Part shown: one piece after another, positions 1 through 13,766 of the stretch | How positions within the stretch are numbered: the stretch's first letter is position 1 | Layout: each line of letters opens with the position of its first letter | Assembly (NCBI GenBank): GCA_038063695.1 | Contig: JBBTUP010000015.1 | Coordinates: 1-41,366 of the forward strand | Direction: 5' to 3' | DNA: 41,366 bases | From: Patescibacteria group bacterium | GTDB lineage: Bacteria; Patescibacteriota; Minisyncoccia; UBA9983 | The notes under the pieces: generated by a model | What the model saw: the letters and a program-made list of their open reading frames with translations, nothing else | What the model was told of the DNA's origin: nothing | Databases searched by the model: none | Made by a program: the position numbers and the translations under genes

Positions 1-41
1 TCACATAAATAATACAGCATAGTTTAATTTTAAGCAAATCA

Positions 42-72
42 CCCCACTTAGAAGCCTTGCTTCTAAGTGGGG
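42..72. repeat. REP-1 hairpin upstream of RAYT-1 (stem CCCCACTTAGAAGC, loop CTT, stem GCTTCTAAGTGGGG)
   Basis: Perfect 14-bp inverted repeat read directly. It ends 4 nt before the TGATAAAAT -10 element of the RAYT-1 gene. Confidence 0.9.
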
Positions 73-75
73 TTT

Positions 76-84
76 TGATAAAAT
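76..84 (+). promoter_or_regulatory. Extended -10 (TGATAAAAT) of RAYT-1, 7 nt before the ATG; leaderless design
   Basis: TGnTAAAAT-like motif with no Shine-Dalgarno. The same GATAAAAT-N6/7-ATG arrangement occurs at all three RAYT genes. Confidence 0.5.
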
Positions 85-91
85 TTAAAAC

Positions 92-733
92 ATGGCCGTG
101 AGAAAAACTAAATTTGTTAATAATTATTTCTATCATATTTTTAATCGGGGAACAGATAAACGTGATATATTTCTAGATCATAATGATATTTCGAGGTTTT
201 TTCAGAGTATGAATGAATTTAATGTTATTGATCCTATAGGGAGTATTTATCAGAATTCTTTTAACTTACTTAGAAGCAAGGCTTCTAAGGATAAAAAATT
301 AGTTAATTTTGTTTGTTATTGTTTAAATCCAAACCATTATCATTTTATTCTTGAGCAAGTTGTTGATAGTGGTATAGAAAAATTTATGCAGCGTTTAGGG
401 ACAGGTTATACGAAGTTTTTTAATCATAAACATAAACGTAGCGGCACCCTTTTTCAAGGAAAATTTAAAGCTGTTCTTATAGATTCAAATGAATTTTTAT
501 TACATGTCAGTGCTTATGTAAATTTAAATGATAAAGTCCATCAACTTAGGAGTCTTAATTCTAAGTCGAGTTGGGATGAATATATTAAAAATAATTACAA
601 TAATTATAATTTTTGTAAAAAAGATGTTATCTTAGATCAATTTAACAACAGGGAAGAGTATAAAAAATTTGCAGAAGAATCATTGAAAGATATTATAGAA
701 AGAAAGGAAATGGAGAAATTTTTATTGGAGTAA
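92..733 (+). CDS. REP-associated tyrosine transposase (RAYT) / IS200-like HUH Y1 transposase family protein, copy 1
   Basis: HUH motif NPNHYHFIL, Tyr motif GTGYTKFFN, then GTLFQGKFK. Flanked on both sides by REP-1 hairpins. Confidence 0.8.
   Translation: MAVRKTKFVNNYFYHIFNRGTDKRDIFLDHNDISRFFQSMNEFNVIDPIGSIYQNSFNLLRSKASKDKKLVNFVCYCLNPNHYHFILEQVVDSGIEKFMQRLGTGYTKFFNHKHKRSGTLFQGKFKAVLIDSNEFLLHVSAYVNLNDKVHQLRSLNSKSSWDEYIKNNYNNYNFCKKDVILDQFNNREEYKKFAEESLKDIIERKEMEKFLLE
269..289. repeat. REP-1 core hairpin (CTTAGAAGC-AAG-GCTTCTAAG) inside the RAYT-1 coding sequence
   Basis: Perfect 9-bp stem, same core as 42..72 and 738..762. Read in frame as LRSKASK. Confidence 0.85.
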
Positions 734-737
734 ATTC

Positions 738-762
738 CACTTAGAAGCAAGGCTTCTAAGTG
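738..762. repeat. REP-1 hairpin downstream of RAYT-1 (CACTTAGAAGC-AAG-GCTTCTAAGTG)
   Basis: Perfect 11-bp stem. The loop AAG is the complement of the upstream copy's loop CTT, so the two flanking copies are in inverted orientation. Confidence 0.9.
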
Positions 763-808
763 TTTATAATAGAAACTGCTACAGGAAATGGGTTAAAGGA
801 GAGATAAG

Positions 809-838
809 AAGGGTCTAAATGGCCCTTTTCTTTTTTTT
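809..838 (+). terminator. Rho-independent terminator after RAYT-1
   Basis: Stem AAGGGTC/GGCCCTT (one G-U pair), loop TAAAT, followed by TTCTTTTTTTT. Confidence 0.6.
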
Positions 839-847
839 ATATGATTA

Positions 848-853
848 TATAAT
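848..853 (+). promoter_or_regulatory. TATAAT -10 box 6 nt before the pth ATG (leaderless design)
   Basis: Exact TATAAT, no SD between it and the start codon. Confidence 0.45.
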
Positions 854-859
854 ATTTTT

Positions 860-1444
860 ATGTATTACATCATAGGGCTTGGGAATCCGGGAGGGGAGTA
901 CAAAATAAGCCGGCATAATACAGGCCGGATTGTTGTTGAGAATTTTAATAAAAAGGAAGAAATCGGCGATTTTGAATTAAATAAAAAATTAAATGCCCTT
1001 ATTGCCTCTGGTAAAGCAGGCAAGGAGAATGTGGAATTGATAATGCCTGAGACATATATGAATAAATCCGGCTTAAGTTTGAGATCACTGATAACTAATA
1101 AAAAGAGAACACAGAATTTAATAGTTATCCATGATGATATTGATTTGCCTTTGGGCAAATTCAAAATATCTTTTGCCAGAGGATCAGGCGGGCACAAGGG
1201 AGTGGAGTCGGTGATAAAGAATATTAAAACCCAGGATTTTATAAGAATCCGGGTAGGTATTTCTCCAAGTACGCCTTCTGGCAAGTTAAAGAAACCAGAA
1301 GGTAAAAAAATGGTGGATTTTATAATCGGCAACTTTAAGCCAAAAGAAATTCAGGTATTAAAAAAGGTTTCCAATAAGATTTCTCAAGCCTTGAGAGTGA
1401 TTATTGACGAGGGCTTAAGCAAGGCAATGAGCCTTTTTAATTAG
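860..1444 (+). CDS. pth: Peptidyl-tRNA hydrolase
   Basis: IIGLGNPGGEYKISRHNTG and HDDIDLPLGKFK motifs typical of Pth; 194 aa. Confidence 0.9.
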   Translation: MYYIIGLGNPGGEYKISRHNTGRIVVENFNKKEEIGDFELNKKLNALIASGKAGKENVELIMPETYMNKSGLSLRSLITNKKRTQNLIVIHDDIDLPLGKFKISFARGSGGHKGVESVIKNIKTQDFIRIRVGISPSTPSGKLKKPEGKKMVDFIIGNFKPKEIQVLKKVSNKISQALRVIIDEGLSKAMSLFN

Positions 1445-2591: not shown

Positions 2592-2614
2592 TGTTCGACA
2601 TTGAATGTTGAACA
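2592..2614. repeat. REP-2 hairpin upstream of RAYT-2 (TGTTCGACATT-G-AATGTTGAACA)
   Basis: 11-bp stem with one G-T position. It lies 9 nt upstream of the TAAAAT -10 of RAYT-2. Confidence 0.85.
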
Positions 2615-2621
2615 CGAATAG

Positions 2622-2629
2622 GATAAAAT
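2622..2629 (+). promoter_or_regulatory. GATAAAAT -10 element 6 nt before the RAYT-2 ATG
   Basis: Same motif and spacing as at RAYT-1 and RAYT-3. Confidence 0.45.
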
Positions 2630-2635
2630 AAAAAC

Positions 2636-3292
2636 ATGTTAGTGACTGGAGAAATATATCATATTTTAAATAAAGGGACAGAAAATCGGATTATATTTCA
2701 AAATAAACGTGATTATGAACGATTTTTGTTAACGATTTTTGAATGCAATGATATAAATTTGTCGTCTGAAAATAGACATAGAAGATGTAAAAACAAAGAT
2801 TTTAATAAAAACAAAACTCAGCCATTGGCGGAAATTCTTTGTTTTTGTTTGATGCCTAATCATTTTCATATAGTTGCAAGGCAACTGGTTGATAATGGAA
2901 TTTCTAAATTTATGCAACGCTTAGGGAATAGTTATACTAAATATTTTAATATTAAAAATAATCGCAAGGGATCTCTTTTTATGGCGCGATATAAAAATGT
3001 TCATGTTAATAATGATTCGCAAGTTAAACATTTAATTGCTTATGTTCACGCAAACCCTCTTGATTTATCTATGCCTGAATGGAGATTAGGAAAGATAAGG
3101 GATTTTGAAAAAGCCAGAGATTTTCTTGAGAACTATAATTGGTCTAGTTATGTTTTTTATAGTCGAGGCGAAGCATCGGATTTAGTATCGCAGATTTTGA
3201 ATAAAGGTGCGCTTAATGATTTTTATTCTGAAAAAGAAGATTATTTTTATACTATTAAATCTTGGTCAGGTAGATATTTTGAGGATATTTGA
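2636..3292 (+). CDS. RAYT / IS200-like HUH Y1 transposase family protein, copy 2
   Basis: HUH MPNHFHIVA, Tyr motif GNSYTKYFN, GSLFMARYK. Flanked by REP-2 hairpins. Confidence 0.8.
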   Translation: MLVTGEIYHILNKGTENRIIFQNKRDYERFLLTIFECNDINLSSENRHRRCKNKDFNKNKTQPLAEILCFCLMPNHFHIVARQLVDNGISKFMQRLGNSYTKYFNIKNNRKGSLFMARYKNVHVNNDSQVKHLIAYVHANPLDLSMPEWRLGKIRDFEKARDFLENYNWSSYVFYSRGEASDLVSQILNKGALNDFYSEKEDYFYTIKSWSGRYFEDI

Positions 3293-3296
3293 AACC

Positions 3297-3329
3297 TGTT
3301 CAACATTGAATGTTGAACAATGTTGAACA
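3297..3329. repeat. REP-2 hairpin downstream of RAYT-2 plus an extra half-site (TGTTCAACATT-G-AATGTTGAACA + ATGTTGAACA)
   Basis: Perfect 11-bp stem immediately after the stop codon, followed by a tandem repeat of the right arm. Confidence 0.9.
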
Positions 3330-4304: not shown

Positions 4305-6782
4305 ATGGATAAAAATGATAAAGAAAAAAAAATACTTCCAATAAACATTTCTTCAGAAATGGAAAAATCATATTTGGACTATGCGATGTCTGTTATTGTG
4401 AGTCGCGCCCTACCTGATATCAGAGATGGCCTAAAACCGGTGCATAGGAGAATACTTTACACAATGCATGAGGTTGGGCTTAATCATTCCGCAAAATTTA
4501 AAAAATCAGCGGCTGTTGTAGGTGATGCTTTAAGCAAATATCATCCGCATGGCGACATTGCTTTATATGACGCAATGGCGAGAATGGCTCAAGATTTTTT
4601 AATGCGCTATCCTTTAGTTGATGGTCAAGGAAACTGGGGTTCTATAGACGGAGATTCGCCTGCTGCTTATCGTTATACAGAAGCAAGAATGACAGCCATG
4701 GCCGATGAAATGCTTAAAGATATTAATAAAGATACTGTTGATTTTAGGCCTAATTATGACAATAGATTAAAGGAGCCGATAGTTTTACCAAGCGCTATAC
4801 CTCAGCTTTTGGTAAATGGGTGTATGGGTATTGCCGTGGGTATGGCTACTAATATTCCTCCGCACAATCTTTCCGAAGTTGTTGATGCTACTATTTATTT
4901 TGCAGATAATCCTAAGGCAACCACAGAGGAATTAATGAAATTTATAAAAGGCCCTGATTTTCCTACGGGCGGGCTTATTTTCAATCCCAAAGACATTCAT
5001 CATGCGTACGCTTCAGGTCGTGGAGGTATAGTGACGCGAGGTGAGGCGGAGATTACAGAGTCAGGCAAGGGCGCTTTCCAAATAATAATTTCTTCTATAC
5101 CTTATCAAGTTAATAAATCAGAATTAATTATAAAAATGGCTGAATTAGTTAACGAGAAAAGACTGGAAGGTATAAGAGATATAAGAGACGAATCAAGCCG
5201 GGAAGGAATAAGGATTGTTGTTGAATTAAAATTAGGAATTAATCCCCAAAAAGTTTTGAATAATTTATACAGGCATATTGACCTTGAGAAAATGTATCAC
5301 TTCAATATGCTTGCCCTGGTGGATGGCGGCACTCAGCCGCAGATTCTTACTCTGAAAATGATACTGGACGAATTTATAAAACACAGGAAAATTATAGTGG
5401 AAAGAAGGGCAAAATTTGATCTGGCCAGAGCTCAAGATAGAGCCCATATCCTTGAAGGACTAAAAAGGGCCTTAGATCGCATAGACGCGGTAATCAAGAT
5501 AATAAAATCATCCAAAGATAAAGAAGCCGCACATGTTAAATTAAGAGAGAAATTTAAATTCACAGACAGACAGACAGAAGCCATTCTCGAAATGAAACTT
5601 CAGACTTTGGCTGGATTAGAAAGGCAAAAAATAGAGGATGAGTTAAAAGAAAAACAAAAATTGATAAAAGATCTTCAGGCCTTGCTTAATGACCCCAAGA
5701 AGATTCTTAAGGTTGTAAAAGACGAATTGACGGAAATTAAAGATAAATATGGCGACGAGCGTAAAACTAAAATAGTGGAGCATATGGCAAAGATAATGTC
5801 TGTTGAAGATCTGGTCCCAGAAAAAGAATCCGTCCTGGTTATTACGAAGGGCGGTTATGTCAAGCGTTCTGACCCATCTTTTTACAAATCACAAAAAAGG
5901 GGCGGAATAGGTGTTATTGATATGAGTACGAAAGACGAGGATTTTGTAACGATTTTTTTAACTGCCAATACTCATGATGATCTGCTTTTCTTTACAGATA
6001 AAGGCAAAGTCTATCAAACAAAGATGTTTGAGATACCGGAAGGCAAACGCGCAAGCAAGGGTAAATCAATTGTTAATTTTCTTTCGCTTTCCTCAGAAGA
6101 AAGAGTAACTTCAGTGCTTGTGATACCTAAGAACTTAGAAGCAAGGCTTCCACTTGGAAGCCTTGCTTCTAAGGAGACAATAGGTTTGATAATGGTTACT
6201 AAGAACGGTATAATTAAGAAAGTAGCACTTTCAAGTTTTAAAGACGTAAGAAGTAGTGGTATTATTGCTATAAGATTAAGCAAGGGAGATGAATTAATGT
6301 GGGCAAGCATTGTTTCAAAAGGAGACGATGTTATTTTGATCACAAAACAAGGACAGTCAATTCGTTTTAAGGAATCAGACGCGAGAATTATGGGAAGAAC
6401 TGCAGCAGGAGTTAGGGCCATAAGATTGAAAAAGAATGATGAATTGATAGGTACCGGAGCAATAAAGAAAAGCGAGAAAACATTATCTCTTTTGACAATG
6501 AGCAAGAATGGTTTTGGAAAGAAAACTGATATTAAAAATTATCGTCTGCAAAAAAGAGGGGGCTCTGGCATAAAGACATCAAAAATTACAAGTAAGACAG
6601 GCGAACTGATAGCAGCATATATTATTAATCCTGAATTTGAAGAGATAATCGCTATATCAAAAAAAGGTCAGGTTATAAGAACTTCTCTTTCAGGTATTCC
6701 AATGCTTGGTAGGCAGACCCAGGGAGTGCGAATTATGAAACTTAAACCAGGAGATAGTATCGCGTCGCTTACTTGTTTGTAG
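4305..6782 (+). CDS. gyrA: DNA gyrase subunit A
   Basis: [30 protein letters not shown], active-site [10 protein letters not shown] and C-terminal beta-pinwheel repeats; 825 aa. Carries the in-frame palindrome at 6134..6173. Confidence 0.97.
6134..6173. repeat. REP-1-derived doublet palindrome (CTTAGAAGCAAGGCTTCCA-CT-TGGAAGCCTTGCTTCTAAG) in frame inside gyrA
   Basis: Perfect 19-bp arms with a 2-nt spacer. Each arm contains the REP-1 core GAAGC-AAG-GCTTC. Translated as [13 protein letters not shown] with no stop or frameshift. Confidence 0.9.
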
Positions 6783-6795
6783 TAAAATTGTTAGT

Positions 6796-6819
6796 TGTTA
6801 GCCACTGAGTGGCGCACAT
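6796..6819. repeat. REP-3 element (TGTTAGCCACTGAGTGGCGCACAT, hairpin GCCAC-TGA-GTGGC)
   Basis: Near-identical (22/24) to 7506..7529 in the same orientation. Overlaps the last codons and the stop of RAYT-3. Confidence 0.85.
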
Positions 6820-7475
6820 TTAGATGTATATTCTGGAAGCCAGTCTTTTAATGCTGTTTCTAATTCGTTTTTATCTTTATAAATTTCATCTATAAAATCT
6901 CGGCTAACAAACGGCATTTGATCTGTATTTAAATATTCTCTTAAACTTGACCAAGGATAATTTCGAAGAAAATTTATCGCGTCTTTTTTATTTTTCACTC
7001 CTTTTTCTTTCCAGTACTTTTCGGAACTTAAAAGTTCAAGAGAATTTAAATGTATATAGAGAGGCAAATAAAGTCTATAAGTATCGTTATCCACATGAGA
7101 TATTTTATACGATCCTTGAAACAGGTTGCCGTTTCGCGAGTTGATTTTATTGAAATAATGCGAATAACCCATTTCGTTTTTGTGCATAAGGCGTGCAATG
7201 CCATTTTCAATAAGTGGTTCAAGGAGTAGATGAAAATGATTTGGAAGCAAACAAAAAGCATGTATCTTTACAAGTGGGTCATCGGGAATTTTTTTACAAG
7301 CAGATTTAATATTATAGCGTGATAGATTACTGATAGGTTGTCGTTGAGTATTAAAAAGAATTAAATTAACAATAAATCTTTCATAATTTTTCTTATCCAA
7401 AAATATAGAACGTTTGTCTGTCCCACGATTAAAGACATGATAAAGTTCGTTATTTGTTGGTGTAAATTTTCTCAT
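6798..7475 (-). CDS. RAYT / IS200-like HUH Y1 transposase family protein, copy 3
   Basis: HUH LPNHFHLLL, Tyr motif EMGYSHYFN, GNLFQGSYK. Bracketed by REP-3 copies. Confidence 0.8.
   Translation of the reverse strand: MRKFTPTNNELYHVFNRGTDKRSIFLDKKNYERFIVNLILFNTQRQPISNLSRYNIKSACKKIPDDPLVKIHAFCLLPNHFHLLLEPLIENGIARLMHKNEMGYSHYFNKINSRNGNLFQGSYKISHVDNDTYRLYLPLYIHLNSLELLSSEKYWKEKGVKNKKDAINFLRNYPWSSLREYLNTDQMPFVSRDFIDEIYKDKNELETALKDWLPEYTSKCAPLSG
7087..7095 (+). promoter_or_regulatory. Perfect DnaA-box 9-mer TTATCCACA (inside the RAYT-3 CDS)
   Basis: Exact consensus match only. Confidence 0.25.
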
Positions 7476-7481
7476 ATTAAT

Positions 7482-7490
7482 ATTTTATCA
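7482..7490 (-). promoter_or_regulatory. Extended -10 TGATAAAAT 6 nt before the RAYT-3 ATG
   Basis: Reverse complement of ATTTTATCA. The REP-3 copy lies over the expected -35 position. Confidence 0.45.
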
Positions 7491-7505
7491 TATTTTGAAT
7501 TAGAA

Positions 7506-7529
7506 TGTTAGCCACTCGGTGGCGCACAT
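7506..7529. repeat. REP-3 element (TGTTAGCCACTCGGTGGCGCACAT) upstream of RAYT-3, followed by CGCACAT-type short repeats
   Basis: Direct copy of 6796..6819. Followed by CCGCACATCTGCATAT, with inverted ATGTGAATGTGG about 25 nt further on. Confidence 0.85.
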
Positions 7530-9903: not shown

Positions 9904-10242
9904 ATGCAAAAAATTAAAAAATTAATACCTTTAGGAGCGGCCTTGTTGCCGTTTATTGCTTTTGCGCAGACAACATTTGGAAGTATATTAGGTACTATTA
10001 GTACTCTAGTCAGTACCTTAACGACAATCGCTATGGCCGTGGCTTTCCTTGTTTTTCTCTATGGTGTGATAAGATTTATTACTGCTGGAGGTGATGAGGA
10101 AAAGAGGAAAACCGCAAAAAATTTAATCATATACGGATTAATCGGCCTTTTTGTAATGGTTGCCGTATGGGGATTGGTAGCAGTCCTTGCTAGTACATTT
10201 GGTGTTACTACGGGTGGTACTACAAGTTTGCCAACTATATAA
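9904..10242 (+). CDS. TrbC/VirB2-like pilin family protein, paralog 2
   Basis: Signal peptide ending AFAQ, helix, TAGGDEEKRKTAKN loop, second helix. Confidence 0.65.
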   Translation: MQKIKKLIPLGAALLPFIAFAQTTFGSILGTISTLVSTLTTIAMAVAFLVFLYGVIRFITAGGDEEKRKTAKNLIIYGLIGLFVMVAVWGLVAVLASTFGVTTGGTTSLPTI

Positions 10243-10520: not shown

Positions 10521-10560
10521 AAAAAACGGGTGAGCCTTGGGCTCACCCGTTTGAGTTTTT
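10521..10560. terminator. Bidirectional rho-independent terminator
   Basis: 11-bp stem ACGGGTGAGCC/GGCTCACCCGT with loop TTG, an A-run upstream and a T-run downstream, between convergent genes. Confidence 0.85.
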
Positions 10561-11020
10561 ATCTTTGCATTGTTTGCATTGATTTTTGGTATTTTTGGTA
10601 TTGGTAGTGTTTATAAATTTTTTCGCTTCTGTACCAGCCAACCAATACAATTGATAGGAATATCAGGAAGACAATAAATCTTACAAGACCTCTTCCTATT
10701 CTAATGGTCGGTATCCTTATCTTCTTCTTTTCTGTTAGTATAGTTTCTTTGCCTTCTTTCTTTCTGGTCTTTCTCCATTTTTTAAATAAGAAGAAAGAAA
10801 TTGGAATGACAATAATTAGAAAAAAAGGAATTAAGAAACCTATTGCAGTGTAAAAAATAGAAATCTCAGAGATCGTGTTTCCTATATTGATTAACACTTG
10901 AATTCCTTTTACCAATAGGATAATGAAAAAGATCGAGATTGCGAAGTATACGAAGTAGATTCCGTTTAACCACATAAGATCATATAGTGCCTTGAGGATA
11001 TTCTTGATTTTTTCTTTCAT
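10559..11020 (-). CDS. Multi-pass membrane protein, unknown function
   Basis: Several hydrophobic helices and a basic loop KKWRKTRKKEGK. ATGA start/stop overlap with the upstream SPFH gene. Confidence 0.6.
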   Translation of the reverse strand: MKEKIKNILKALYDLMWLNGIYFVYFAISIFFIILLVKGIQVLINIGNTISEISIFYTAIGFLIPFFLIIVIPISFFLFKKWRKTRKKEGKETILTEKKKIRIPTIRIGRGLVRFIVFLIFLSIVLVGWYRSEKIYKHYQYQKYQKSMQTMQR

Positions 11021-12271: not shown

Positions 12272-12859
12272 TTATAGGTTGTAATGATTTTTTAAAATGA
12301 TTTCGTCTCGAGGGTCTATTTTTTGCGCAATGAAAAAGTGGATATATTTTCTTATATTTAAAATTTCACTTATAAAATCAATTTCATCTTCACATGGGAA
12401 TGGGCATATAAAAACGCTTTTTTGGAGTGGATAAATTTCCATATCGTTTAATTTATTACTTAACGCCTTCCTTCCTTTTCTGTGTTTTTCTGGGATGTCA
12501 AAGGATATGATTCGCCACGAACCGTCCCATTTTTTTGGTCTGGTTATTTTTATATCGTCAAATTTATAAATTAAGACACGTTTTTCTCCGTTCACTGTTA
12601 TTTTAATTATTTCTTTGTCGTCTTTTTCGTAAATTTCAATTAATTTTTGTTTTTGTAGTGTTCGCATTGTTCTTTTTATTCTATACCTGTCTTTTGCGTT
12701 TTTGACGCCGAATAGAGAAAAAACTTGTGGCAGATTAGGCAGGGCAAAACTGGCTATAATCAGCCCGCCTATCGCCAGCCCTTTTAAGATTTCTTTTGCC
12801 AGTTCTCCTTTTTTATAATCATTTCTTATTGATATTTTTTCTTTTGTCATCCTGGTCAT
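12272..12859 (-). CDS. Membrane-anchored PaaX-like regulator (winged-helix plus PaaX C-terminal/Cas2-like fold)
   Basis: TM helix LAIGGLIIASFALPNLPQVF, wHTH-like RTMRTLQKQKLIEIYEKDDK, and WDGSWRIISFDIPEKHRKGRKALSNKLNDMEIYPLQKSVFICP, which matches the PaaX C-domain signature W.G.W..v..D.PE..R..R..L...L...G...LQ.SVw..P. Confidence 0.6.
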   Translation of the reverse strand: MTRMTKEKISIRNDYKKGELAKEILKGLAIGGLIIASFALPNLPQVFSLFGVKNAKDRYRIKRTMRTLQKQKLIEIYEKDDKEIIKITVNGEKRVLIYKFDDIKITRPKKWDGSWRIISFDIPEKHRKGRKALSNKLNDMEIYPLQKSVFICPFPCEDEIDFISEILNIRKYIHFFIAQKIDPRDEIILKNHYNL

Positions 12860-12897
12860 ATTTTAGTTTTATTATAGATATAATTTATAAGTTCATA

Positions 12898-12935
12898 CTA
12901 TCACATATTTAGCCGATCGGCAAGATAGGTGATAG
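12898..12935. promoter_or_regulatory. Palindromic element B (CTATCACATATTTAGCCGATCGGCAAGATAGGTGATAG), operator-like, upstream of the PaaX-like gene
   Basis: Lies 39 nt upstream of the start codon. On the minus strand it contains TTGCCG-17-TAGTAT, a plausible promoter. Confidence 0.5.
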
Positions 12936-12972
12936 TTAATTATTAATTACTATATTTAAATGAATATTTTTA

Positions 12973-13043
12973 TGCGGGCACGGAGAGTCGAACTCCGGTC
13001 TCGTCCTTGGCAAGGACGCATTCTGCCACTAAACTATGCCCGC
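12973..13043 (-). tRNA. tRNA-Gly (GCC)
   Basis: Hand-folded cloverleaf: acceptor GCGGGCA/TGCCCGC, anticodon stem CGTCC/GGACG, loop TTGCCAA, T arm CGGAG-TTCGACT-CTCCG. Confidence 0.9.
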
Positions 13044-13086
13044 GATTATGAAATTATATCATAAACATGGCGTGCCCCGTACAAAA

Positions 13087-13170
13087 TGCTGGGGGGGAGA
13101 TTTGAACTCCCAATCTCTTGCGAGAATCAGGTTCTAAGCCTGACGCGTATGCCAATTCCGCCACCCCAGC
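13087..13170 (-). tRNA. tRNA-Leu (UAG), type II with long variable arm
   Basis: Acceptor GCTGGGG/CCCCAGC, anticodon stem TCAGG/CCTGA, loop CTTAGAA, T arm GGGAG-TTCAAAT-CTCCC. Flanked by 14-nt perfectly complementary sequences. Confidence 0.9.
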
Positions 13171-13184
13171 ATTTTGTACGGGGC

Positions 13185-13355
13185 AAATCTGCCATCTTGC
13201 CCCGTAGTTAAAGCGGATCTTTATACTATGAGGTTCACCACTCGCCCGATTTTTTCCGCCCACCAGGAATCGAACCTGGAACCTTCTCCTTTCCGCCCTA
13301 GGCGGACCAGCCTCGGGATGAAAGAGGGAGATGCCCCGCCCCCTGCCATCGCCTA
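13185..13355 (-). ncRNA. Unassigned GC-rich spacer with tRNA-like fragments (T arm plus acceptor 3' strand; tRNA-Leu 5' fragment)
   Basis: CCAGG-TTCGATT-CCTGG-TGGGCGG at 13256..13279 (minus sense) and GGGCGAGTGGTGAACC at 13232..13247, which copies the 5' end of tRNA-Leu(UAA). I could not fold a complete cloverleaf. Confidence 0.3.
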
Positions 13356-13428
13356 TGCTCCGTGAGGGTCTCGAACCCCCGACCTTCTCCTTAAGAGGGA
13401 GCTGCTCTACCAACTGAGCTAACGGAGC
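13356..13428 (-). tRNA. tRNA-Lys (CUU)
   Basis: Acceptor GCTCCGT/ACGGAGC, D arm GCTC-AGTTGGTA-GAGC, anticodon loop CTCTTAA, T arm GGGGG-TTCGAGA-CCCTC. Confidence 0.85.
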
Positions 13429-13543
13429 GTAGGACATGGCGGGCAGGTCTACCAATTGACCCGTTCGCATCGCTACGCTTAGGCCGCTAGGCGGGGCGAG
13501 ACTATGGGCGGGAAAATGTGCGTGGCCTTCCCTGTACAGGTGG
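13429..13543 (-). ncRNA. Unassigned GC-rich spacer with a D-arm-like motif
   Basis: GGTC-AATTGGTA-GACC (13446..13461, minus sense) and hairpin CCGC-TAG-GCGG. No complete tRNA could be folded. Confidence 0.3.
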
Positions 13544-13626
13544 TGGGCGAGGAGGGAGTCGAACCCTCACCCGCTTACGCGGACAACATTTTAAGTGTTG
13601 CGTGTATACCATTCCACCACTCGCCC
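13544..13626 (-). tRNA. tRNA-Leu (UAA), type II; CCA apparently encoded (13541..13543)
   Basis: Acceptor GGGCGAG/CTCGCCC, anticodon stem CAACA/TGTTG, loop CTTAAAA, T arm GAGGG-TTCGACT-CCCTC. Confidence 0.9.
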
Positions 13627-13694
13627 ACCACCTATACGGGGTGAATATACCAACTTGCTCTTTATATTTTTATCATTTACTATTTTATCTATAA

Positions 13695-13766
13695 GGCCGT
13701 GTAGCCAAGTGGTAAGGCAAGGGTCTGCAAAACCCTTATACGTGGGTTCGATTCCCGCCACGGCCT
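13695..13766 (+). tRNA. tRNA-Cys (GCA)
   Basis: Acceptor GGCCGTG/CACGGCC, anticodon stem AGGGT/ACCCT, loop CTGCAAA, T arm GTGGG-TTCGATT-CCCGC. Confidence 0.9.

What the first reader, a model, noticed from the sequence alone, without database searches (positions are those of the whole stretch)
6134..6173. Perfect REP-1-derived 40-nt palindrome inserted in frame inside gyrA
CTTAGAAGCAAGGCTTCCA-CT-TGGAAGCCTTGCTTCTAAG has 19-bp perfect arms. Each arm contains the REP-1 core that flanks RAYT-1 6 kb away. It lies within the GyrA C-terminal domain and reads through as [13 protein letters not shown], sitting within the segment VLVIPKN...[12 protein letters not shown] of an otherwise normal beta-pinwheel blade. 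This resembles the Rickettsia palindromic elements that add peptide segments to essential proteins. Here it is linked to a RAYT/REP family and hits an essential topoisomerase. The element must be transcribed and translated, forms a strong mRNA and ssDNA hairpin, and may be a RAYT substrate inside an essential gene.
Basis: partly seen in the sequence, partly recalled or inferred. Interest (0 to 1): 0.85.

Follow-up and report, generated by a model that had tools for sequence, protein, structure and literature searches.

The report
REP hairpin doublet inside gyrA
A 40-base perfect palindrome, made of two copies of the repeat that flanks a nearby RAYT transposase gene, sits in frame in a surface loop of the essential DNA gyrase A gene of a Patescibacteria genome, and the same loop carries lineage-specific versions of this palindrome in at least seven other related species.

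Summary
Window 6134-6173 is a perfect palindrome with 19-nt arms and a 2-nt spacer, lying in frame in gyrA (4305..6782). It consists of two inverted units of REP-1 (ACTTAGAAGC-NNN-GCTTCTAAGT). REP-1 also flanks the Y1/HUH transposase gene RAYT-1 (92..733) and occurs inside that gene.

The closest GyrA (93% aa, same groundwater sample) lacks 27 nt here and keeps only the outer ends. Its contig has no REP-1 and a different RAYT. An AlphaFold model places the extra residues in a disordered loop between two strands of the C-terminal beta-pinwheel.

Eight GyrA lineages (70-80% identical to each other) carry palindromic doublets at the same codon. Their closest relatives (88-94%) keep the native K/E-rich loop. 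The doublets fall into four inner-stem types. Each type matches REP variants encoded in frame, twice, inside genes of the RAYT-1 subfamily.

Best reading: a tolerated REP doublet of RPE/intragenic-REP kind, gained repeatedly at a preferred gyrA site and lost by deletion. In-frame intragenic REPs are already known, so this is a new variant. RAYT-mediated insertion is inferred and was not shown.

The parts
6134..6173 (+). 40-nt perfect palindrome, a doublet of two inverted REP-1 units sharing the centre CACT. It is translated in frame as (N)[13 protein letters not shown].
6134..6154 (+). REP-1 unit A (CTTAGAAGC-AAG-GCTTC...). Its 3' outer stem is replaced by the junction with unit B.
   Evidence: 3 mismatches to the 21-mer pattern
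6153..6173 (+). REP-1 unit B (CTTGGAAGC-CTT-GCTTCTAAG), a near-complete REP-1 in the inverted orientation.
   Evidence: 1 mismatch
4305..6782 (+). gyrA, 825 aa, full length with an intact reading frame.
6126..6185 (+). Codons of the enlarged inter-strand loop [20 protein letters not shown] in the GyrA C-terminal beta-pinwheel, between strands VTSVLVI and LIMVTK.
92..733 (+). RAYT-1, a Y1/HUH tyrosine transposase of the REP-associated kind (NHYHF, AYVNLN).
41..73 (+). REP-1 hairpin upstream of RAYT-1 (15-bp stem, loop CTT).
269..289 (+). REP-1 unit in frame inside RAYT-1 (LRSKASK), conserved position 1 of the subfamily.
544..566 (+). Degenerate REP unit in frame inside RAYT-1 (LRSLNSK), conserved position 2. 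The outer stem is kept and the inner stem has decayed.
738..762 (+). REP-1 hairpin downstream of RAYT-1 (11-bp stem, loop AAG).

Best explanation
The palindrome is a compact doublet of two inverted REP units, REPIN-like. It belongs to the REP-1 family of the neighbouring RAYT-1 gene and has been written into the coding DNA of gyrA.

It persists for two reasons. It lies in the one frame of the palindrome that has no stop codon. It also enlarges a solvent-exposed loop of the GyrA C-terminal beta-pinwheel by about 10-12 residues without touching the strands. On this reading it is a selfish or neutral passenger, not a gyrase feature.

The inferred life cycle has four steps:
1. The Y1/HUH transposase recognises the REP hairpin on single-stranded DNA and copies or moves doublets.
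2. Copies that land out of frame or in structured parts of essential genes are purged.
3. This loop is both permissive and in some way preferred. Related Paceibacteria lineages have acquired their own lineage-specific doublets at the same codon at least eight separate times, usually replacing most of the native K/E-rich loop.
4. The hairpin promotes internal deletion, leaving scars such as AACTTAG-TTTCTAAAG in the 93% relative.

Shown here: identity with REP-1, the in-frame position, loop location in the model, absence from close relatives, recurrence with four REP types, and the match of those types to the REP repertoire of the RAYT-1 subfamily. Inferred only: RAYT catalysis, the direction of the 27-nt event, and neutrality.
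For: - REP-1 identity: 5 pattern matches against 0.01 expected. Three are at RAYT-1 and two form the gyrA palindrome.
- Closest relative: L001/L002/L081 (P0002, 93-94% aa, same Hainich H51 sample as L080, which is identical to the window over the CTD) lacks exactly 27 nt. It keeps CTTAG...TTCTAA. Its 10.5-kb syntenic contig has no REP-1 and a different RAYT beside pth.
- Structure: the CTD model has mean pLDDT 88.5. The insert lies between strands 121-127 and 146-152, and its tip has pLDDT below 50. The model superposes on the E. coli gyrase CTD at TM 0.87. phmmer puts a 12-aa gap exactly at [12 protein letters not shown] against M. tuberculosis GyrA.
- Recurrence: palindromes start at the same codon (AA|CTTRG) in L004, L138, L139, L140, L141, L142 and L143. 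Their arms are up to 22 bp and perfect.
- Derived state: 11 of 121 GyrAs, in 8 lineages, carry such inserts. Each lineage has nearest neighbours at 88-94% aa with the native loop, while the insert-bearers are only 70-80% identical to each other.
- Conservation: palindromes of the same type are 87-93% identical in nucleotides. Flanking third codon positions are 38-60% identical.
- Link to RAYT-1: the four types (GAAGC, GAAAC, GAGAC, GGAGT) correspond to heptapeptides LRSKASK, LGNxVSK, LGDSVSK and L[RG]SSTPK. These are encoded at two fixed positions inside RAYT-1-subfamily genes.
- Architecture: doublets built the same way are dispersed in another CPR genome (H14-bin043_1).
- Other genes: the same kind of units lie in long reading frames that look like Pth, DprA, a helicase and aminoacyl-tRNA synthetases of CPR MAGs. 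Only the Pth insertion was checked against homologues (+7 aa). The other gene names are my reading of the translations and were not family-searched.
- Precedent: intragenic REP singles and dimers are documented (PMC3733652).
Against: - No activity of RAYT-1 on this or any REP has been shown. RAYT-1 scores only 27 bits against the NCBIfam REP_Tyr_transpos cut-off of 80.
- REP-1 is low-copy in the 41 kb. The only copy away from the RAYT-1 gene is the gyrA one. That is odd for random dispersal.
- In three of four with/without pairs the palindrome replaces 20-30 nt of native loop instead of simply inserting. No target-site duplication is visible.
- Eight hits at one codon are not explained by a permissive-loop filter alone, and no target motif could be defined.
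- In the other species the RAYTs visible on the same contigs carry unrelated REPs. The gyrA-type REP was not found elsewhere in the DNA I hold. A match between the gyrA palindrome and that genome's own REP population is therefore shown only for the window.
Confidence: 0.72

Rival explanations
1. One ancient insertion at this gyrA site in an ancestor of the clade. It was inherited vertically, kept palindromic and repeatedly overwritten to match each lineage's evolving REP sequence, and lost many times.
For: Fixed REP sites can be overwritten in concert. The two in-frame REP positions inside RAYT-1-subfamily genes are conserved across more than 100 homologues. They carry the same variable core in 61 of 109 proteins, against 5.6% in shuffled pairs. 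Loss does occur, as the scar in P0002 shows. L138 shows a decaying copy.
Against: The nearest relatives of every insert-bearing lineage have the native loop (PKSAKEKES-like). That loop is alignable across the whole tree, including outgroups. A deletion cannot restore it, because the insert-bearing alleles no longer contain those codons. Insert type also does not follow the GyrA tree.
Confidence: 0.15
2. The hairpin is a selected cis-acting element of gyrA. It could be a cruciform that extrudes under negative supercoiling, or an mRNA stem that tunes gyrase expression or translation pausing. Alternatively the extra peptide could modify DNA wrapping by the CTD.
For: The palindrome recurs at one codon of one gene in eight lineages, with arms up to 22 bp and perfect. 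Within a type, the nucleotide sequence is far better conserved than flanking synonymous sites. It is the only REP-1 copy away from its RAYT gene in 41 kb. E. coli REPs are reported to be targeted by DNA gyrase (as cited in PMC3733652).
Against: The distribution is patchy, with the closest relatives lacking it. The sequences are those of mobile REP families, not gyrA-specific. The same elements sit in reading frames of many unrelated genes. The peptide differs between types, and its tip is disordered in the model. No Rfam family matches.
Confidence: 0.1
3. Assembly artefact, or chance or in-situ origin from ordinary coding sequence.
For: Palindromes can arise from chimeric joins in metagenome assemblies.
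Against: The sequence is identical in independent assemblies (window, L080, P0001 cluster). Analogous inserts come from different assemblers and projects. The reading frame is intact. The pattern gives 5 matches against 0.01 expected. Orthologues lack the peptide.
Confidence: 0.02

Closest known systems
Intragenic GTAG/CGTC REPs (Di Nocera et al. 2013, PMC3733652)
   Same: These are short REP hairpins, single or as inverted dimers, lying in frame inside known genes and adding roughly 10-30 residues. Replication and repair genes and tRNA synthetases are among the hosts. Different REPs lie at about the same recB site in two Xanthomonas species. GTAG REPs are associated with RAYT genes.
   Different: The unit here has neither a GTAG nor a CGTC tag; its foot is ACTTRG/CYAAGT. 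The host is Patescibacteria. The doublet has almost no spacer (2-4 nt). The same gyrA codon is occupied in eight lineages by four REP types. The cognate RAYT gene itself carries two in-frame REPs.
Rickettsia palindromic elements (RPE; Ogata et al. 2000, as summarised in PMC10969869)
   Same: These are palindromic selfish DNA inserted in frame into housekeeping genes of a reduced genome and translated as extra peptide segments. The insertions were predicted to be compatible with protein conformation and function.
   Different: RPEs are about 100-150 bp, belong to Rickettsia-specific families and have no known dedicated transposase. This element is 40 nt and is built from REP units of a RAYT next door.
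REPIN/RAYT systems (Bertels & Rainey 2011, PMC3116915, PMC3337134)
   Same: Two REPs in inverted orientation form one long hairpin. They are associated with a Y1/HUH RAYT that is flanked by the same REPs, with lineage-specific REP sequence types (abstracts; my own knowledge for details).
   Different: Described REPINs have a spacer between the two REPs and are extragenic; from memory they are longer and reach tens to hundreds of copies. Here the doublet is 40-46 nt, intragenic and low-copy in the DNA available. The window has three paralogous RAYTs, each with its own REP.
IS200/IS605 single-strand transposition (mechanistic model; my own knowledge)
   Same: The transposase fold is Y1/HUH (Pfam Y1_Tnp hit). 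The substrates are hairpins. Short target motifs would allow repeated use of one site.
   Different: No element ends, target tetranucleotide or excision/insertion junctions could be defined here. The native loop is partly replaced instead of interrupted.

Membership tests
REP (repetitive extragenic palindrome) / REPtron | Short (20-40 nt) hairpin-forming palindrome | tested here: met
   Units have 9-15-bp stems and 3-nt loops, at -7.6 to -16.6 kcal/mol as ssDNA.
REP (repetitive extragenic palindrome) / REPtron | Copies flank a RAYT gene | tested here: met
   Copies at 41-73 and 738-762 flank ORF 92..733.
REP (repetitive extragenic palindrome) / REPtron | Many dispersed copies in the genome | not testable with these tools
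   Only 41 kb of this genome is held, with 5 units. Related families reach about 20 or more copies in other CPR MAGs.
REP (repetitive extragenic palindrome) / REPtron | Extragenic location | tested here: not met
   The gyrA doublet and the RAYT-internal units are inside ORFs and in frame.
REP (repetitive extragenic palindrome) / REPtron | GTAG (or CGTC) tetranucleotide tag at the hairpin foot (PMC3733652) | tested here: not met
   The foot reads (C)ACTTAG...CTAAGT(G). No GTAG/CTAC or CGTC is present.
REPIN | Two REPs in inverted orientation folding into one long hairpin | tested here: met
   19-bp perfect arms.
REPIN | Spacer between the two REPs, and a replicating population of such doublets | tested here: inconclusive
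   The spacer is only 2 nt. No second REP-1 doublet is in the window. Doublets of the same build are dispersed in H14-bin043_1.
RAYT (REP-associated tyrosine transposase), for ORF 92..733 | Y1 transposase fold with HUH motif and catalytic Tyr | tested here: met
   Pfam Y1_Tnp scores 24.6 bits against a cut-off of 23. NHYHF and AYVNLN align with other RAYTs.
RAYT (REP-associated tyrosine transposase), for ORF 92..733 | Reaches the curated NCBIfam REP_Tyr_transpos threshold | tested here: not met
   27.1 bits against a cut-off of 80. JGI names close homologues 'REP element-mobilizing transposase RayT'.
RAYT (REP-associated tyrosine transposase), for ORF 92..733 | Cleaves or mobilises its REP | not testable with these tools
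   Needs biochemistry.
Rickettsia palindromic elements (RPE) | In-frame insertion into housekeeping ORFs, tolerated as an extra surface segment | tested here: met
Rickettsia palindromic elements (RPE) | About 100-150-bp element of the Rickettsia RPE sequence families | tested here: not met
   The element is 40 nt, built of REP-1 units, in a Patescibacteria host.
DNA gyrase subunit A | N-terminal topoisomerase domain plus six-bladed C-terminal beta-pinwheel | tested here: met
   Pfam hits. The model matches E. coli, M. tuberculosis and B. burgdorferi GyrA CTDs.

The most novel reading that the evidence does not exclude
The RAYT-1 subfamily of Patescibacteria may not scatter its REPs at random. 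It may write them, and later overwrite them, at a small set of fixed in-frame 'landing pads'. These would be two positions inside its own transposase gene and the blade-connecting loop of GyrA, and possibly DprA and Pth. The coding DNA of an essential topoisomerase would then track the lineage-specific REP sequence. The resulting 19-22-bp cruciform or mRNA stem in gyrA could couple REP/RAYT biology or DNA supercoiling to gyrase expression.
Probability: 0.22. Interest if true: 0.85.

Novelty: new variant of a known kind. Interest (0 to 1): 0.62.

Why it matters
In-frame palindromic passengers in essential genes are known from Rickettsia and a few proteobacteria. They show how selfish DNA can lengthen proteins.

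This case extends the phenomenon to the ultra-small, gene-dense Patescibacteria. The papers I could search do not describe REP/RAYT systems in that group. It also adds two unusual features. First, one codon of gyrA has been occupied independently, again and again, by lineage-specific REP doublets. That implies site preference by a Y1/HUH enzyme or a very narrow tolerance filter. Second, a RAYT subfamily carries two copies of its own REP in frame inside its gene, and those copies evolve in concert.

Both features give concrete, testable handles on how REPs are copied, which remains an open question for RAYT systems. They also bear on how perfect palindromes survive inside transcribed, translated, essential DNA.

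Tried and rejected
- Metagenome scan for GyrA relatives. It returned only two close relatives, L080 (identical) and L081 (empty site). The others were too distant to align at the loop.
- HMMER search of 50%-identity representatives with the CTD. The set was too divergent. No NL-type insert was seen, so the hotspot appears confined to the close family. My loop pattern missed 82 of 150 sequences, so this is weak.
- Search for gyrA-type REPs elsewhere in the other species' contigs. None was found. The RAYTs on those contigs carry unrelated TGTT...AACA REPs.
- Horizontal transfer of a gyrA patch as the cause of shared insert types. Rejected: flanks next to the palindromes are no more similar than the rest of the gene (overall 67-79%, third positions 30-60%).
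- Microhomology or a target motif (AACTTR, CYAAG in the P-K codons) as the cause of the hotspot. Native loops of with/without pairs show no consistent motif. This remains unresolved.
- Known RNA family at the site. Rfam finds nothing, only five tRNAs elsewhere.
- The 15-mer core search with 3 mismatches alone was not convincing (5 matches against 1.3 expected). The 21-mer hairpin pattern was.
- About nine chance hits are expected for the 18-base pattern in 596 Gb. Single hits in Bacillus, Paenibacillus, Vagococcus and similar genomes were therefore disregarded.
Full report
OBSERVATION. Window 6134-6173 is CTTAGAAGCAAGGCTTCCA-CT-TGGAAGCCTTGCTTCTAAG, with 19-nt arms that are 100% complementary and a 2-nt spacer. 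It is the longest perfect short-loop palindrome in the 41 kb. It folds far better than shuffled controls: -20.8 kcal/mol as ssDNA (z = -10) and -43.2 kcal/mol in 100 nt of RNA (z = -7.5). It lies inside ORF 4305..6782 (+), an 825-aa GyrA with the topoisomerase domain and six C-terminal beta-propeller repeats. It is read as [15 protein letters not shown]. Of the three frames of the palindrome only this one is open: frame 1 runs into TAA and frame 3 begins with TAG. Because the sequence is palindromic, the same holds for either orientation.

RELATION TO THE NEARBY REPEAT AND TRANSPOSASE. The hairpin pattern CTTAGAAGC-NNN-GCTTCTAAG occurs five times in the window against 0.01 expected. It lies at 47-67 and 740-760, on either side of ORF 92..733. 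It lies at 269-289, inside that ORF and in frame. With 3 and 1 mismatches it occurs at 6134-6154 and 6153-6173, the two halves of the gyrA palindrome. ORF 92..733 is a Y1/HUH transposase. It hits Pfam Y1_Tnp just above the cut-off and has the NHYHF and AYVNLN motifs. Its best NCBIfam hit is REP_Tyr_transpos, but far below threshold. JGI names close homologues RayT. The gyrA element is therefore a doublet of two inverted REP-1 units joined through the centre ...GCTTC-CA-CTTGG.... The same build (unit, CA, unit) is seen in dispersed doublets of another Patescibacteria MAG, H14-bin043_1.

IS IT AN INSERTION? Among 120 GyrA homologues the corresponding loop is normally about 9-10 residues, P-K-x-A-K-E-x-x-x. 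The closest relative without the element (P0002, 93-94% aa) comes from the same Hainich H51 groundwater sample as L080, an independent assembly identical to the window over the CTD. Its DNA reads AACTTAG-TTTCTAAAGAG where the window has AACTTAG[AAGCAAGGCTTCCACTTGGAAGCCTTG]CTTCTAAGGAG. That is a clean 27-nt (9-aa) difference. Outgroups have neither the N-L nor the S-K flanks, so I read the short allele as a deletion scar of the doublet, not a virgin site. This direction is an inference. The relative's 10.5-kb syntenic contig contains no REP-1 and has a different RAYT beside pth. phmmer against solved structures places a 12-residue gap exactly at [12 protein letters not shown] relative to M. tuberculosis GyrA. 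An AlphaFold model of the C-terminal domain (mean pLDDT 88.5) puts the insert between strands 121-127 and 146-152, with pLDDT below 50 at its tip. The model superposes on the E. coli gyrase CTD with TM 0.87. The extra residues therefore enlarge a disordered surface loop and leave the pinwheel strands intact.

THE SAME LOOP IS OCCUPIED IN OTHER SPECIES. Eleven of the 121 GyrAs have a long loop beginning P-K-N-L. I obtained DNA for seven further lineages. All carry a palindromic doublet starting at the same codon (AA|CTTRG):
- L004: GGAAACTAAGTTTCCAAGTGGAAACTTAGTTTCC
- L138: a decayed copy of that type
- L139 and L140: AACTTGGAGACTGAGTCTCCAAGCGGAGACTCAGTCTCCAAGTT (sequence of L140, 20-bp arms; L139 carries an imperfect copy of this type)
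- L143: the same type with 21-bp arms
- L141: 19-bp arms
- L142: CTTAGGAGTTGAACTCCTAAG-TGAA-CTTAGGAGTTCAACTCCTAAG (22-bp arms)

The outer stem (ACTTRG/CYAAGT) is shared. The inner stem and loop define four types: GAAGC, GAAAC, GAGAC and GGAGT. In a neighbour-joining tree and in pairwise identities, the eight insert-bearing lineages are 70-80% identical to each other. Each has nearest neighbours at 88-94% that carry the native loop, and insert type does not follow the tree. In three further with/without pairs the palindrome replaces 20-30 nt of the native loop, for a net gain of 18-24 nt. A deletion therefore could not regenerate the native sequence. This favours at least seven or eight independent gains over a single ancient one. 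Palindromes of the same type in distant GyrAs are 87-93% identical, while flanking third codon positions are only 38-60% identical and the flanks show no locally raised identity. That argues against transferred gyrA patches. It argues for recent acquisition from related mobile families, or strong constraint on the DNA sequence. Within GyrA these NL-type doublets occur only at this loop.

LINK OF ALL FOUR TYPES TO ONE RAYT SUBFAMILY. RAYT-1 has 2,693 homologues at E <= 1e-10; the hits that carry a source name are Patescibacteria, Parcubacteria or Paceibacteria. In the best 120, two conserved positions encode a heptapeptide L-[RG]-x-x-x-[SP]-K, which is a REP unit read in frame. One position lies before the HUH strand and the other lies right after the catalytic-Tyr helix. 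The variable core is the same at both positions of one protein in 61 of 109 cases, against 5.6% for shuffled pairs. DNA from L006, L029, L037 and L065 confirms that these are REP hairpins. The repertoire includes LRSKASK (GAAGC, the window), LGNxVSK (GAAAC), LGDSVSK (GAGAC) and LRSSTPK/LGSSTPK (GGAGT). These are exactly the types found in gyrA. REP units in these genomes are thus lineage-specific, evolve in concert with their transposase gene, and are the source of the gyrA doublets. I could not verify directly that each species' gyrA type equals its own genomic REP type. The collection scans were exhausted and the contigs held show only other REP families.

GENERALITY AND PRECEDENT. In the genome collection the REP-1 pattern forms families in many Patescibacteria (Saccharibacteria, Parcubacteria) and some Bdellovibrionales MAGs. 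Most copies are intergenic. A minority lie in frame in long ORFs that read as Pth, DprA (same site in two MAGs), a PcrA/AddA-like helicase, IleRS, ArgRS, LeuRS, PheT, XseA and RNase R. Only the Pth case was checked against homologues, where the doublet adds 7 aa. The other names are my reading of the translations. About nine chance hits are expected for that pattern in 596 Gb, so singletons outside these groups were ignored. Di Nocera et al. (PMC3733652) already described in-frame REP singles and dimers in replication and repair genes and tRNA synthetases, and different REPs at about the same recB site in two Xanthomonas species. RPEs of Rickettsia are the classic case. I found no paper describing REP/RAYT systems in Patescibacteria, but the library is incomplete.

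MECHANISM. Best-supported reading (confidence about 0.7): a selfish or neutral REP doublet was placed in gyrA by the REP/RAYT machinery. It is retained because it is in the only open frame and in a permissive loop, and it is removed by hairpin-stimulated deletion. Inferred and not shown: catalysis by RAYT-1, neutrality, and the cause of the site preference.

Several points remain unexplained. One codon has been hit eight times. The native loop is replaced, not interrupted. In 41 kb the only REP-1 copy away from its RAYT gene is the one in gyrA.

There are three rivals. The first is a single ancient insertion with concerted overwriting and many losses (about 0.15). The second is a selected hairpin, cruciform or peptide function in gyrase regulation (about 0.1). 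The third is an artefact or chance origin (below 0.02), which is excluded by independent assemblies and orthologue comparison.

VERDICT. In kind it is a new variant of known intragenic REP/RPE-like elements. The recurrent use of one gyrA codon, and the RAYT genes that carry their own REPs in frame, make it more interesting than a single insertion would be. Interest 0.62.

Noticed in passing
window 92-733 (units at 269-289 and 544-566); homologues P0121-P0240; L006, L029, L037, L065: Genes of the RAYT-1 subfamily carry two in-frame REP units at conserved positions (L-[RG]-x-x-x-[SP]-K). The variable core is the same at both positions in 61 of 109 proteins, against 5.6% in shuffled pairs. REP copies inside the transposase gene therefore evolve in concert. 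In the window the second copy is degenerate.
   Followed up: partly
window 2592-3319 and 6796-7528: Two more REPtrons lie within 7.5 kb. RAYT-2 (2636..3292) is flanked by TGTTCRACATTGAATGTTGAACA. RAYT-3 (6798..7475, minus strand, directly downstream of gyrA) is flanked by TGTTAGCCACTSRGTGGCGCACA. They form a second REP superfamily (TGTT...AACA) unrelated to REP-1. No dispersed copies are in the window.
   Followed up: partly
L001 3540-4420 versus window 1-900: In the 93% relative the pth-adjacent slot holds a different RAYT, which groups with RAYT-3, and no REP-1. A RAYT beside pth is seen in four other relatives' contigs (L001, L138, L139, L140) but not in L143 or L144, and the paralogue and its REP differ between genomes.
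   Followed up: partly
L071 4758 / L013 1409; L034 527; L053 6796; L070 7706 / L077 6677; L052, L056, L027, L024, L014: REP singles or doublets of the CTTAGAAGC family lie in frame in long ORFs of other CPR and Bdellovibrionales MAGs. By my reading of the translations these are DprA (same site in two MAGs), Pth (+7 aa, checked), a helicase, LeuRS (same site in two MAGs), IleRS, ArgRS, PheT, XseA and RNase R.
   Followed up: partly
L144 11816-11866 (GyrA P0030 clade); GyrA P0020 after residue 660: Other GyrA loop expansions also look hairpin-derived. TCCGCC-CTT-GGCGGA lies in the GLPSALGGGGA loop of L144. A PARNAAHSAAGG insert in another CTD loop of P0020 back-translates to a possible GC-rich palindrome, but I have no DNA for it.
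   Followed up: no
window 12897-12936, upstream of ORF 12272..12859 (minus strand): A 40-nt imperfect palindrome (23-nt arms, 87% complementary) sits about 40-80 nt upstream of a gene with PaaX_M and Cas2-like domains. It is a candidate operator.
   Followed up: no
window 12973-13766: A cluster of five tRNA genes. The 138-aa ORF 13054..13470 listed there overlaps them and is probably spurious.
   Followed up: no
window 10524-10552: A perfect 13-bp-stem GC-rich hairpin, AAACGGGTGAGCC-TTG-GGCTCACCCGTTT, lies between ORFs 9904..10242 (+) and 10559..11020 (-). It looks like a bidirectional terminator.
   Followed up: no
P0244, P0247, P0253, P0255, P0259, P0269 and others: Many distant GyrA representatives are about 1,250-1,300 aa. 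That is about 450 aa longer than usual and suggests large insertions, possibly inteins. I did not examine them.
   Followed up: no
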